Shown here piece by piece: positions 35,789-38,700 of a DNA stretch of 64,000 nt. The position numbers are program-made. The DNA comes from Zootoca vivipara (taxonomy: Eukaryota): assembly GCF_963506605.1 (NCBI RefSeq), contig NC_083283.1, positions 46,252,001-46,316,000 of the forward strand, in the 5' to 3' direction. Numbering within the stretch: the first letter of the stretch is position 1; each line of letters opens with the position of its first letter.

Positions 35789-38700
35789 TAAACTTTGTTT
35801 CTGATTATACACAGAAAATATTACTAAACTTGGAACCTACACATTGAAACTGCAAGTGGTGTTGAATGAAAGCAATGGTGACACTTATGCAGGAAGACCT
35901 CTTCCATCAGAAACATTTAAATTTAATATAATAGGTAAAGTTAATACTGTTGTTGTACTTTAACCAGTCAGTGCCTGTTCTTTGCATGCAGAAGTTAGCT
36001 GTGATACACTCAGAAAAATACTATTTTTCTATTTAAAGTTGGATTAAATGTTGAAAAAGTTATTGAAAGTGTTAATAAAATATAAATGCGTTGAAGCATT
36101 CAGGCTGCATTCAGATGGGTGAAGAATGACTAGAATTAAACCACTAAACAATTTCATTGTAATAATGTTCTCCCCCCCCCCATCTACCTCAGAGGGCAAG
36201 CCTCAGAAGTTTTCAATAGGTCTTTTGGATCCCCCATTTCGAGTTGGGCATCCATTCAATATTCCTCTAGATGTCCAGGATGAATTTGGTCATGCTACTC
36301 ATCTGACGGATGATATTGTGCCAATTCTTGAGGCTAGGTAACTGTCATTTTAATTATTTTGTTTATTTAGTATTTTTAAATAAAGATTTGTATTTGCTCT
36401 GTTTTCCCCAATCCACTGGGTCCCAAATAAATGTTGTGCACACACAGCTAGGTGTTTTTCGCTTCATAAACTGATAATCTGTCTCCTTTGTACCAAAAAC
36501 TAAGAAATCATCTCTTGAATTCTTACACAGTCTTGAGGTTACATGGTGTTAATGCAGGAGGAGGTGACAGGTGCTTGCTTTATCACAACTGAGGCTTTTC
36601 ACCCATGGAAAATGAATGGAATTCTTAAACTGGGATTTTTCACAGTATTTTTAACTGGAAGGATTCTATATGCCGATGGGAGATTCCTCCCATCTAGTTC
36701 AGGAGAAAAGGCTAATTCCATTAGAAGGAGCAATGTCTCAGTATTTTTCTTGCCTACAGTGAAAAGCAGTGATGGTAGGCAGAGATCAACTGAGAACATA
36801 AGGGATGAGACAATATTTCAGGTATCTTGGATAAAAGAGGACGTGTCCCTAAAATATGGAATTAAGCCATAATCTTCATTGACTGAAATGTCTATCATTC
36901 TCTTGAGCCGTCTCCCCCCCAAAAAACACTAGGCAATTTGAATATTTTGCAGCAGTGCCCAATCTGGACAGGGTGTTATCATTCCCAAACCAAGAAAATA
37001 GTGTTGGATTTGGTATCTGAAGAAGTGTGCATGCACACGAAAGCTCATACCAAAATATAAACTTAGTTGGTCTTTAAGGTGCTACTGAAGGAATTTTTTT
37101 ATTTTGCTTCGACTCAGACCAACACGGCTACCTACCTGTAACTGGATTTACCCATGCGAGTTATTTCTAATCATAGACAGACACCTGGGCCTGGGCCTTT
37201 AATTTTCCTCTGGTGCGGAGTTGTTCCCCAAAGTCATCCTGACAGTAGCCCTCTCTTTTCTGTGCAACGTTAAAATAATAAGTCCACAGTTTTGCATTTT
37301 GCTTATTCCTCACTTGTGGGAGCATCCAAAACCAAGAGGGCTGCTCCACAGTAGAGGTTTCAGAAGCTTCTGGAATTTTAGTCTCCTGAAGTGAATGAGA
37401 AGGGTCACTCAGCGCCACAGAATATTCTGTATATTCAGAAAGAGCCCTCATGGGTAACTCCACATTGTGTATTATTTAGTTGCAATTTTAAAATGGTCAC
37501 TTTAGTTCTGAAAATTATTTTCACTTGTGTTTGTAGTGGCTTAACATTACAGTATGAAGAAATAGATAAAGGACCAAATTGTGCCGTTAAGGGTGTAACT
37601 GCTAAAGGCCTGGTAAACAATTACCAGGGCAAGGTAAGTTGAATTATGGCCAAAATGCATCGTTTACTTTTAATAAATATGTTGTTGCATACTTGTGTAC
37701 TGTATAAAGAATCATAGTTGTTGTTCATATGAATTAAAATATTTATCTAAAATATTTTAATAGCTTATATATTTTCTATTCAAGAATTAATTTGTAGATT
37801 ATTAAGTCAAGTATTCTAGAAGTCCTTCAAGTCTAAGTGGGAGTGGCTTTGGCGTGCAAGGCAGCTTCCTCGCGCCCAGCCGCAGCTCTGCTTCAACTCC
37901 ACTTCCGGGTCACGTCTGACCCAGGGACAAAGTGGAGAGTCGTGGCACAGAGCTGTTGCCCCTCTCCTCAGCGAGTGCACCCCCCACAGCAGCTCCATCC
38001 CAAAGTCAACCCTGACCTGGAAAGATGAAAGACCGTGGGTGCATGAGGCACCCAGCCTGGACACCTCCATCCCCAGGTCAAGCCTGACCCAAGAGGCAGA
38101 GTTGGGCTGTGAGGCGTCAACCTGGCAGCTCCGACAGAGAGAGAGAGAGTGGGTGGCAATGTTGGCACCCACTCTCATGGACTGTGGTGTGTGAGTGGGC
38201 CCGTGGCCCGTTTTGCAAGGCAAGCCTCACGGGGCTTCCTCTGTGCCCTGCCCCCCTGCCCTGGCTGCAATTTCCTTACCACTGTTTCAAGTACCACTTA
38301 TTTATGTTGGGATTACTGTAAGTGTGTCTTAATGCAGGATTTTGAAATAGAAGGAGCCTCAGTTAAGAACCTCAGTTAAGTAGCTGAGGGTGTTAGACAA
38401 GAATAAAGATTAAAAGTGGAACATTTTAAGTCGTTTCCTAGGGGGTGGAAATATATAATTGCTTTACAGGATTATTCACTTTGAAAACTGAACAAAAAAA
38501 AATTCATGGGCATTATTTAACAATGACTTTTAAAATTATATTTTTCAATAGAACTTCAATCTGAAAGTTACTCTTCCTGGTCTGAAGGAGGAATCCCAGG
38601 TTTTGAAAATTAAACTTCTTCCAGGTTAGTGAAATGTTTGAAACATACGACTTCATTAATGTGATCCACTTTACATGGGCCTGTCATTGAATTAAGTCCA

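What the first reader, a model, noticed from the sequence alone, without database searches (positions are those of the whole stretch)
37005..37149. Intact sense hammerhead in SMCHD1 intron 20, in a very young copy
Seen: 37035-37148 is identical over 114 nt to 15641-15754, the core is intact, and flanking Ts extend stem I to 8 bp. It is on the transcribed strand of SMCHD1. Both variant-B copies end in TGGATT, which also occurs in their left flanks. This suggests target preference or microhomology-primed insertion. Inference: recent mobility, possible insertion polymorphism, and possible pre-mRNA cleavage if it pairs in trans with another copy.
Basis: partly seen in the sequence, partly recalled or inferred. 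Interest (0 to 1): 0.7.

Follow-up and report, generated by a model that had tools for sequence, protein, structure and literature searches.

The report
Penelope-type minimal hammerhead retrocopy in intron
This is a 131-base dead-end copy of a Penelope-like jumping gene that carries that family's usual stripped-down hammerhead ribozyme motif, sitting in an intron of a lizard SMCHD1 gene; it is an ordinary, already described kind of repeat and is unlikely to cut the gene's RNA.

Summary
37035-37148 equals 15641-15754 at 114 of 114 bases. The hammerhead core is intact, with the scissile bond at 37046/37047. The site lies on the sense strand in intron 20 of a lacertid-like SMCHD1.

The interpretation needs correcting in three places.
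- **TGGATT is target-site duplication, not element end.** The repeats are TGGATTT, 37005-37011 and 37143-37149, and CTGGATTGCCCT at the 15.6 kb locus. Only 108 of the 114 identical bases are element.
- **The motif is the minimal hammerhead of Penelope-like elements.** It has an extra base after A9, a G10.1-C11.1 pair, a palindromic AGCU in place of helix III and a 5-bp helix I. No Rfam hammerhead model matches it.
- **Pre-mRNA cleavage is unlikely.** Published assays report no detectable cleavage by a single such motif, and the Anolis PLE hammerhead cleaved only with its protein added. The 4-bp intermolecular helix III is worth -2.5 kcal/mol.

All four loci in the window have duplications. Two carry an inverted piece at the 5' side, and three end at the same AC-rich site 95-99 nt past the cut. 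This fits internal initiation of reverse transcription as described for Anolis Poseidon.

Two points remain unexplained: the fixed 5' end at GGTATC, and the TGGATT shared by two duplications.

The parts
37005..37011 (+). Left target-site duplication, TGGATTT
   Evidence: Perfect 7-nt direct repeat with 37143-37149. Its last three Ts add 3 bp to helix I.
37012..37142 (+). 131-nt PLE-type element, variant B: minimal hammerhead followed by a 96-nt tail that ends in an AC-rich stretch
   Evidence: blastn and nhmmer copies. Boundaries are set by the duplications. The 3' end ...AACACGGCTACCTACCTGTAA is shared exactly by 3 of 4 loci, with 0 matches in 100 shuffles.
37009..37054 (+). Minimal type-I hammerhead motif: helix I 37009-16/37047-54; CUGAAGA 37017-23; bulged A 37024; helix II 37025-29/37034-38; GAA 37039-41; AGCU 37042-45; C17 37046
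   Evidence: Sequence, strict descriptor, MFE fold forming helices I and II but no helix III. No Rfam hammerhead hit.
37046..37047 (+). Predicted scissile bond (C17 / A1.1)
   Evidence: Position follows from the hammerhead numbering applied. No cleavage data exist.
37143..37149 (+). Right target-site duplication, TGGATTT
36192..36350 (+). SMCHD1 coding exon 20 (approximate ends)
   Evidence: Protein search of this exon alone; tblastn of lizard SMCHD1 proteins.
37532..37639 (+). SMCHD1 coding exon 21 (approximate ends)
   Evidence: tblastn.
15565..15759 (+). Sister variant-B locus, about 1.3 kb upstream of SMCHD1 exon 1. It has duplications CTGGATTGCCCT at 15565-76 and 15748-59. An inverted 5' piece at 15577-15640 carries a complete hammerhead on the minus strand. 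A direct piece at 15641-15747 starts inside helix II.
6211..6363 (+). Variant-A copy in an NDC80 intron. Duplication ACACAACTT(G); element 6220-6353; intact hammerhead with CTGATGA; 88% identical to the 37 kb copy. An open frame runs from the ATG in loop II to the element end.
58431..58550 (+). Fourth locus, in a later SMCHD1 intron. Duplication TTTTTTATAG. A 9-nt inverted copy of the element's 3' end lies at 58441-49. The direct copy runs from 58450, has core GAAA changed to AAAA, and is cut short at the internal T run.

Best explanation
The feature is a short, dead-on-arrival retrocopy of the hammerhead-bearing segment of a Penelope-like element (PLE), or of a non-autonomous derivative that PLE enzymes mobilise.

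Proposed mechanism:
1. A PLE reverse transcriptase/GIY-YIG endonuclease nicked both strands of the intron 7 bp apart. [inferred from the duplication]
2. Reverse transcription began at the family's fixed internal start site, an AC-rich stretch 95-99 nt downstream of the hammerhead cut site. [inferred from 3 of 4 loci sharing that exact 3' end and from the Anolis in vitro work]
3. It copied back through the uncleaved hammerhead to a fixed 5' end at GGTATC. [shown: 3 of 4 loci start there; the cause of that end is unknown]

The hammerhead is the PLE 'minimal' type. It has helices I and II and a complete catalytic core. Helix III is reduced to the palindrome AGCU, which can only form between two copies.

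As a lone copy in an intron it should fold helices I and II but stay catalytically silent. It is therefore a passenger of the insertion, not a regulator of SMCHD1. [inference from published assays and from the computed weakness of the 4-bp contact]
For: 1. All four hallmarks that Cervera and de la Pena list for PLE minimal hammerheads (whole text read) are present:
- a G10.1-C11.1 pair;
- palindromic 15.2/16.2 (G-C within AGCU), with no loop 3;
- a short helix I, 5 bp from the element itself.

2. The insertion anatomy is typical of PLEs (passages):
- 4 of 4 loci are flanked by perfect direct repeats of 7, 9-10, 12 and 10 nt.
- 2 of 4 loci carry an inverted piece at the 5' side: 15577-15640, and TTACAGGTA at 58441-49. 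This fits an enzyme that cuts and extends both strands.

3. The 3' end is fixed. 3 of 4 loci end at the identical 21-mer. That is 95-96 nt (variant B) or 99 nt (variant A) past the cut site. It is also 111-115 nt past the ATG in loop II. In Anolis PAc, reverse transcription starts in an AC-rich stem-loop 111-118 nt into an ORF that begins in stem II, which is 85-92 nt past the cut. The last 32 nt here are 22 of 32 A or C (read).

4. The family is dispersed. There are four loci in 64 kb. Short mispredicted proteins from other records carry the same repeat, including one named from Zootoca vivipara.

5. Inactivity:
- A single minimal motif gave no detectable cleavage, and dimers or trimers gave low cleavage.
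- The PAc hammerhead needed PLE protein and was dispensable for insertion, and no RNA-seq reads ended at its site.
- The AGCU/AGCU duplex is -2.5 kcal/mol.
Against: - No PLE reverse transcriptase or GIY-YIG ORF is linked to this repeat in the window. The only RVT_1 ORFs (44502-46509) are 7 kb away and unlinked.
- Two protein searches with the frame that is open in the variant-A copy found only short mispredicted proteins and no RT/EN protein. Assignment to PLEs therefore rests on motif type and insertion anatomy, not on a demonstrated parent element.
- No Rfam hammerhead model scores here, even at E<=10.
- Helix II is 5 bp with a 4-nt loop, shorter than the 6-8 bp described for many PLE motifs.
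- A simple 5'-truncation model predicts scattered 5' ends, yet 3 of 4 loci start at the same base.
- Variant B, the youngest, has stop codons in the frame that is open in variant A. This fits a non-coding, non-autonomous source better than an autonomous PLE.
- The Anolis study reports that reverse transcription starts at a site not homologous to the target. That leaves the TGGATT shared by both variant-B duplications unexplained.
- In a 451-nt context the MFE fold pairs the hammerhead segment elsewhere.
Confidence: 0.8

Rival explanations
1. Unit-length retrozyme copy. The 131-nt unit is a whole monomer of a small non-autonomous 'non-LTR retrozyme'. A tandem source is transcribed, the hammerheads cleave as dimers, and the monomer is ligated into a circle. 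PLE reverse transcriptase then starts at the internal site and stops after one turn. The 5' boundary (GGTATC) is therefore simply the base after the start site (...GTAAC).
For: - Both ends are fixed in 3 of 4 loci, which random 5' truncation does not predict.
- The hammerhead is uncleaved and whole in the copies, as expected after religation.
- The youngest variant (B) is non-coding.
- A 2026 preprint argues that animal non-LTR retrozymes derive from PLE terminal repeats. It gives consensus lengths of 51-972 bp, averaging 176 bp in reptiles, with many monomeric offspring.
Against: - The window has no tandem junction. The pattern for ...CCTGTAA-N-GGTATCTGA gave one 2-mismatch match, which is chance: 19 of 100 shuffles do as well, and the sequence there is unrelated.
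- Published retrozymes carry canonical type-I hammerheads with loop-loop contacts and a small helix III loop, not the loop-less minimal type.
- In Anolis no RNA ends were seen at the hammerhead site.
- Nothing here shows a circular RNA.
Confidence: 0.2
2. The sense-strand hammerhead is active and cleaves SMCHD1 pre-mRNA at 37046/37047 after pairing in trans with another copy, for example the one at 58450 in the same transcript.
For: - The core is intact, and helix I is lengthened to 8 bp by flanking Ts.
- A second sense copy lies in the same gene and still has AGCU.
- In a 251-nt context the MFE fold keeps helices I and II.
Against: - Helix III can only form as a 4-bp intermolecular AGCU duplex, computed at -2.5 kcal/mol, Kd about 17 mM.
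- The favoured computed homodimer uses the 14-nt helix II palindrome and swapped helix I, and still lacks helix III.
- Published minimal motifs show no detectable monomer activity and low dimer activity.
- The Anolis PLE hammerhead needs PLE protein.
- The 58 kb copy is 21 kb away and has a mutated core (GAAA to AAAA).
- The motif is a copy of a repeat, not a conserved intronic element. No HH9 or HH10 match was found.
Confidence: 0.03
3. Chance motif or assembly artefact. The identity with 15641-15754 comes from a misassembled or collapsed duplicate, and the hammerhead is a coincidental match.
For: A loose hammerhead pattern occurs at chance frequency in the window.
Against: - The strict descriptor gives 3 hits against 0 in 200 shuffles.
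- The identity stops exactly at the element and duplication edges.
- Each of the four loci has its own perfect flanking duplication.
- Two sequence variants exist.
Confidence: 0.01

Closest known systems
Minimal hammerheads of Penelope-like elements (Cervera and de la Pena 2014, PMC4209133; text read)
   Same: - Type-I topology.
- Complete CUGANGA and GAAA boxes.
- An extra base between positions 9 and 10.1.
- A G10.1-C11.1 pair.
- No loop 3, with palindromic 15.2/16.2, so helix III forms only between two copies.
- Helix I of 4-5 bp.
- Mostly found as scattered single motifs from truncated elements.
- Reported in reptiles (turtle, snakes).
   Different: Helix II here is 5 bp plus a 4-nt loop, within a 14-nt perfect palindrome, rather than the 6-8 bp often described. 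No flanking PLE ORF could be shown. The reptile sequences of that paper are in supplements I could not open, so no direct sequence comparison was made.
Poseidon element PAc of Anolis carolinensis (Frangieh et al. 2024, PMC11167929; main text read)
   Same: - The hammerhead sits where the ORF begins, with a start codon in stem or loop II.
- Genomic copies end at an internal, AC-rich reverse-transcription start site about 90-100 nt past the hammerhead cut: 85-92 nt in PAc, 95-99 nt here.
- Both target strands are cut and extended, which explains the inverted pieces.
- Uncleaved RNA is the template.
   Different: - PAc's start codon is at the start of stem II, 26 nt before the cut. Here the ATG is in loop II, 16 nt before it.
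- Only the variant-A copy keeps an open frame.
- PAc's preferred cut motif is 5'-ATT-3' in AT-rich DNA, with no homology between target and start site. Here two duplications share TGGATT.
- The sequence relationship to PAc is untested, because the consensus is in a supplement.
Animal non-LTR retrozymes (Cervera and de la Pena 2020, PMC7229834, passages; Li et al. 2026 preprint, Results part 1 and Discussion)
   Same: Small non-coding units with a type-I hammerhead that works as a dimer. They are proposed to be mobilised by PLE enzymes, with many monomeric copies. Reptile units average 176 bp.
   Different: They are defined by tandem arrays and canonical hammerheads with loop contacts. The window has only single copies with duplications, and a loop-less minimal motif.
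Conserved intronic hammerheads of amniotes, HH9 and HH10 (Rfam families; names recalled, mentioned only in passing)
   Same: A sense-strand hammerhead inside an intron of a protein-coding gene.
   Different: Those are single-copy, deeply conserved, monomer-active motifs with a stable helix III. This one is a young repeat copy with no helix III, and it matches no Rfam hammerhead model.

Membership tests
Hammerhead ribozyme (catalytic motif) | Conserved core: C3-U4-G5-A6-N7-G8-A9, G12-A13-A14, A15.1-U16.1 and a non-G at position 17 | tested here: met
   CTGAAGA 37017-23, GAA 37039-41, A37042, U37045, C37046 (descriptor). 3 of 4 loci in the window keep it; the 58 kb copy has G12 changed to A.
Hammerhead ribozyme (catalytic motif) | Three helices around the core, including a helix III able to form within one molecule | tested here: not met
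   Helices I (8 bp) and II (5 bp) form in the MFE fold. Helix III would be one A-U pair closing a 2-nt loop and is absent from every fold.
Hammerhead ribozyme (catalytic motif) | Match to a curated hammerhead covariance model (Rfam) | tested here: not met
   0 matches at gathering score in the whole window. No hammerhead family at E<=10 in 36950-37200.
Hammerhead ribozyme (catalytic motif) | Site-specific self-cleavage | not testable with these tools
   Needs in vitro transcription or RNA end mapping.
PLE minimal hammerhead (min-HHR) | [quoted passage not shown] | tested here: met
   A37024; G37025 pairs with C37038. Criteria taken.
PLE minimal hammerhead (min-HHR) | No loop 3; palindromic 15.2/16.2, so helix III forms only in a dimer | tested here: met
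   AGCU at 37042-45 is self-complementary. The duplex is computed at -2.5 kcal/mol.
PLE minimal hammerhead (min-HHR) | Short helix I (4-5 bp) and long helix II (6-8 bp) | tested here: inconclusive
   Helix I is 5 bp from the element, plus 2-3 bp from the flank. Helix II is 5 bp with a 4-nt loop inside a 14-nt palindrome.
PLE minimal hammerhead (min-HHR) | Located in the terminal repeat of an element that encodes RT and a GIY-YIG endonuclease | not testable with these tools
   No such ORF is linked in the window. Protein searches found none. No lizard genome or repeat library was available.
Penelope-like element insertion | Target-site duplication, with frequent inverted 5'-truncated copies at the 5' side | tested here: met
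   Duplications at 4 of 4 loci. Inverted pieces at 2 of 4 loci. Criteria taken.
Penelope-like element insertion | 3' end at a fixed internal reverse-transcription start site downstream of the hammerhead | tested here: met
   3 of 4 loci end at the same 21-mer, 95-99 nt past the cut. The Anolis value is 85-92 nt. The fourth locus is cut short at a T run.
Non-LTR retrozyme | Head-to-tail tandem repeats, each with a hammerhead | tested here: not met
   No tandem junction in the window. All four loci are single units. The rest of the genome is untested.
HH9 / HH10 conserved intronic hammerheads | Match to the Rfam models, and single-copy conservation | tested here: not met
   No Rfam match. The sequence is a multi-copy repeat.

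The most novel reading that the evidence does not exclude
The 131-nt unit is a self-contained non-autonomous element, not a randomly truncated PLE fragment. Both of its ends are set by the RNA: the 3' end by the internal reverse-transcription start site, and the 5' end by the adjoining base in a circular or tandem hammerhead-processed template. Its insertion sites are chosen, or primed, through a short match to TGGATT. That would be in vivo evidence for a minimal PLE-mobilised 'retrozyme' only 131 nt long. It would also show a homology-guided step that the Anolis in vitro system did not see.
Probability: 0.2. Interest if true: 0.45.

Novelty: new member of a known kind. Interest (0 to 1): 0.15.

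Why it matters
As it stands, it matters little. It is one more copy of a repeat type already described in reptiles, and it most likely does nothing to SMCHD1.

It has modest value as natural confirmation of the Anolis in vitro picture. The fixed 3' ends at an AC-rich site, the use of uncleaved hammerhead RNA as template, and the inverted pieces expected from priming on both strands are all visible in four insertions within 64 kb.

Two details could interest people who study PLE mobilisation if they hold genome-wide: the identical 5' end in 3 of 4 loci, and the TGGATT shared by the two youngest target sites. They bear on what the template RNA is (a leader transcript or a small circle) and on whether target choice involves sequence matching.

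Tried and rejected
- **Rfam.** Searches of the whole window at gathering score and of 36950-37200 at E<=10 gave no hammerhead family. The only two weak hits, snoR31 and TCV_H4 at E 7-8, are noise.
- **Loose regular expression for hammerheads.** It was not above chance, so I replaced it with a strict descriptor.
- **Search for a parent PLE protein.** I used the frame that is open in the 6 kb copy.
  - A 44-aa in-frame stretch gave 3 of 3 candidates, all short mispredicted proteins.
  - The exhaustive representative search gave 7 hits at E<=0.001. Four are short proteins carrying the repeat and three are unrelated repeat proteins. None has RT or endonuclease.
  - Whether the ATG in loop II is a real PLE start codon therefore stays unproven.
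- **Energy of the classical double hammerhead.** The structure crosses, like a pseudoknot, in dot-bracket notation, and returned a nonsense energy. An earlier script died without output. I scored only the isolated AGCU duplex.
- **Tandem-junction search.** It gave one chance match, which I inspected and dismissed.
- **nhmmer profile of the four copies.** It found no further clear copy, only a weak hit at 21607-21677 (E 0.016).
- **Papers not held.** Lunse, Weinberg and Breaker 2017 and Pyatkov et al. 2004 were not held. I know them only from a review passage and from Frangieh's text.
- **Rejected explanations.**
  - Segmental duplication, because the identity ends at the element edges.
  - The 37 kb copy deriving from the 15.6 kb copy, because the latter lacks the direct 5' 23 nt.
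  - TGGATT as an element 'tail', because each locus's left and right repeats agree with each other beyond TGGATT but differ between loci.
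Full report
**What is there**

Positions 37005-37149 hold a 131-nt repeat unit (37012-37142) flanked by a perfect 7-nt direct repeat, TGGATTT, at 37005-37011 and 37143-37149. 37035-37148 equals 15641-15754 at 114 of 114 bases, and the identity ends within one base on either side. Only 108 of those bases are element. The last six, TGGATT, belong to the flanking repeat.

**The hammerhead**

The 5' part of the unit reads as follows.
- Helix I, 5' strand: GGTAT, lengthened by three flanking Ts.
- Core box CTGAAGA.
- One extra A.
- Helix II: GTGTG-CATG-CACAC.
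- GAA.
- AGCU.
- C17, then ATACC(AAA).

Every conserved core position is present, and the predicted cut is 37046/37047.

A loose pattern occurs at chance frequency (7 found, 7.28 expected). A strict descriptor finds 3 sites in the window and none in 200 shuffles.

ViennaRNA folds the 48-nt segment, and the same segment in a 251-nt context, into helix I (8 bp) and helix II (5 bp) with no helix III. In a 451-nt context the segment pairs elsewhere.

No Rfam hammerhead model matches, at gathering score or at E<=10. That is expected for a motif without helix III, but it is a failed membership test and is recorded as such.

**Gene context**

I sent one exon alone (36192-36335) to the protein search. 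It matches squamate SMCHD1. I then mapped named lizard SMCHD1 proteins onto the window with tblastn.

That places 20 coding exons on the + strand before the element: exon 1 at about 17092-17226 and exon 20 at 36192-36350. Exon 21 lies at about 37532-37639. 'Intron 20, sense strand' therefore holds.

Exon ends are approximate, and untranslated 5' exons would shift the number. Per-exon identity is highest to Podarcis muralis, up to 100%, so the window is lacertid-like and not human.

Upstream, on the same strand, lie NDC80 exons (Pfam Ndc80_HEC and NDC80_loop).

**Other copies**

blastn and an nhmmer profile find four loci.
- **6220-6353**: variant A, 88% identical, in an NDC80 intron.
- **15577-15747**: variant B, intergenic, about 1.3 kb before SMCHD1 exon 1.
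- **37012-37142**: variant B, the finding.
- **58441-58539**: in a later SMCHD1 intron.

All four are flanked by perfect direct repeats: ACACAACTT(G), CTGGATTGCCCT, TGGATTT and TTTTTTATAG.

Three of the four end at the identical 21-mer ...AACACGGCTACCTACCTGTAA. The fourth stops at the element's internal T run, next to a T-rich target.

In three of the four the direct copy starts at GGTATC. In the fourth (15.6 kb) the direct part starts inside helix II and is preceded by an inverted copy of the first ~65 nt. That inverted piece carries a complete hammerhead on the minus strand.

At 58441-58449 the direct copy is preceded by nine bases that are the reverse complement of the element's own 3' end.

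**What it is**

The motif has the four hallmarks given for the minimal hammerheads of Penelope-like elements. These are an unpaired base between positions 9 and 10.1, a G10.1-C11.1 pair, palindromic 15.2/16.2 without loop 3, and a short helix I. That paper also notes such motifs in turtle and snakes, mostly as scattered single copies from truncated elements (PMC4209133).

The insertion anatomy matches published PLE descriptions (passages of PMC8557442). It comprises duplications, inverted 5' pieces and heavy truncation.

The closest mechanistic match is the Anolis Poseidon element PAc (PMC11167929, main text).
- Its hammerhead sits at the start of the ORF.
- Its enzyme cuts and extends both target strands.
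- Uncleaved RNA is the template.
- Reverse transcription starts internally, in an AC-rich stem-loop 111-118 nt into the ORF, which is 85-92 nt past the hammerhead cut.

Here the shared 3' end is 95-99 nt past the cut and 111-115 nt past the ATG that lies in loop II. The last 32 nt are 22 of 32 A or C.

In the variant-A copy the frame from that ATG stays open for 38 codons to the end of the element. Variant B has stops.

I could not show a parent element. No PLE ORF is linked in the window. Two protein searches with the open frame found only short mispredicted proteins that carry the repeat, one of them named from Zootoca vivipara.

**How it most likely works**

Shown:
- The unit's boundaries, the duplications and the shared 3' end.
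- The intact core and the missing helix III.

Inferred:
- A PLE enzyme made staggered nicks 7 bp apart.
- It primed cDNA at the fixed internal site and copied the uncleaved hammerhead.
- The product is a dead end. The RNA region downstream of the start site, which the Anolis enzyme needed (the first 172 nt of the ORF), is not copied.

As a lone intronic copy, the motif can only complete helix III by pairing AGCU with AGCU of another copy. That duplex is computed at -2.5 kcal/mol, Kd about 17 mM.

The strongest computed homodimer (ddG -17 kcal/mol) uses the 14-nt helix II palindrome with swapped helix I, and it still lacks helix III.

Published assays agree. A single motif gave no detectable cleavage, and dimers gave low activity. 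The Anolis hammerhead cleaved only with PLE protein, and no RNA-seq reads ended at its site.

Cleavage of SMCHD1 pre-mRNA is therefore improbable.

**What stays unexplained**

First, the fixed 5' end at GGTATC in 3 of 4 loci. Random 5' truncation does not predict it, and hammerhead cleavage would give ATACC instead.

Two sub-models fit.
- A transcript that begins there.
- A unit-length copy of a circular or tandem 131-nt RNA, in which the base after the start site is GGTATC.

The window has no tandem junction. In D. virilis the transcription start is 121 nt upstream of helix I, with an intron ending at helix I, so the fly gives no direct precedent.

Second, both variant-B duplications begin with TGGATT. 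That hexamer occurs 25 times on the + strand of the window. A shared hexamer at that position is therefore roughly a one-in-a-thousand event per pair. With six pairs, and noticed after the fact, it is suggestive only.

The variant-A copy does not share it. The Anolis work reports an ATT cut preference and no homology between target and start site.

**Age**

There are zero differences in 108 element bases, and one in the 67-nt inverted piece, between the two variant-B loci. The duplications are perfect. By my arithmetic the 95% upper bound on pairwise divergence is about 2.7%. The copies are young relative to variant A (88%), but I give no absolute age.

**Limits**
- No lizard genome, repeat library or population data could be searched.
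- Paper supplements were closed. They contain the reptile motifs of PMC4209133 and the PAc consensus of PMC11167929, which would allow direct comparison.
- Lunse et al. 2017 and Pyatkov et al. 2004 were not held.
- The names HH9 and HH10, and the family numbers, are recalled.

**Verdict**

The feature is a young, inert copy of a known repeat type, the minimal hammerhead of a Penelope-like element. It ranks as a new member of a known kind, of low interest. Two small anomalies are worth a genome-wide look.

Noticed in passing
window 15565-15759: A composite variant-B insertion lies about 1.3 kb upstream of SMCHD1 exon 1. An inverted piece and a direct piece form 49-nt arms that are 96% complementary, 14 nt apart. 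The only complete hammerhead there is on the minus strand, with helix I reduced to 4 bp.
   Followed up: partly
window 58431-58550: This copy has the catalytic G12 changed to A (GAAA to AAAA). It is cut short at the element's internal T run next to a T-rich target (TTTTTTATAG duplication). It is preceded by 9 nt that are the reverse complement of the element's 3' end. This looks like priming on both strands plus internal priming by T/A microhomology.
   Followed up: partly
window 6239-6352: In the variant-A copy an ATG in loop II of the hammerhead opens a 38-codon frame that runs to the exact end of the element. It may be the start of the parent PLE ORF, as in Anolis PAc. Protein searches found no full-length relative.
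   Followed up: yes
window 21607-21677: A weak nhmmer match (E 0.016) to the element profile lies just downstream of SMCHD1 exon 2. It may be an old, decayed copy of the same family.
   Followed up: no
window 37094-37117: On the sense strand the element carries a long T-rich tract followed by CAG, which looks like a splice acceptor. One annotated Zootoca vivipara protein (P0022) contains a translated piece of this repeat, so the family may sometimes be read as exon by gene predictors or by the cell.
   Followed up: no
window 6220-6353, 15641-15747, 37012-37142, 58450-58539: The direct parts of all 4 of 4 loci are on the + strand, which is the sense strand of both NDC80 and SMCHD1. There are too few loci to call this a bias.
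   Followed up: no
window 824-9209: NDC80 exons lie on the + strand upstream of SMCHD1 (Pfam Ndc80_HEC at 824-1036 and 3315-3602; NDC80_loop at 7461-9209). From memory, human has the same gene order.
   Followed up: partly
window 16500-17750: A GC-rich island (GC 0.58-0.66 against about 0.39 nearby) lies around SMCHD1 exon 1. It is probably the promoter CpG island.
   Followed up: no
window 44502-46509: Two overlapping + strand ORFs with RVT_1 reverse-transcriptase matches (E 1.4e-21 and 1.9e-07) suggest a frame-shifted retrotransposon in an SMCHD1 intron, with simple repeats nearby. No GIY-YIG domain was seen, so it is not evidently the parent PLE.
   Followed up: partly
window 18498-18942: Minus-strand ORFs give a weak DUF4371 match (E 0.002, below the cut-off). 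This may be a remnant of a transposase-derived sequence in SMCHD1 intron 1.
   Followed up: no
   Followed up: no
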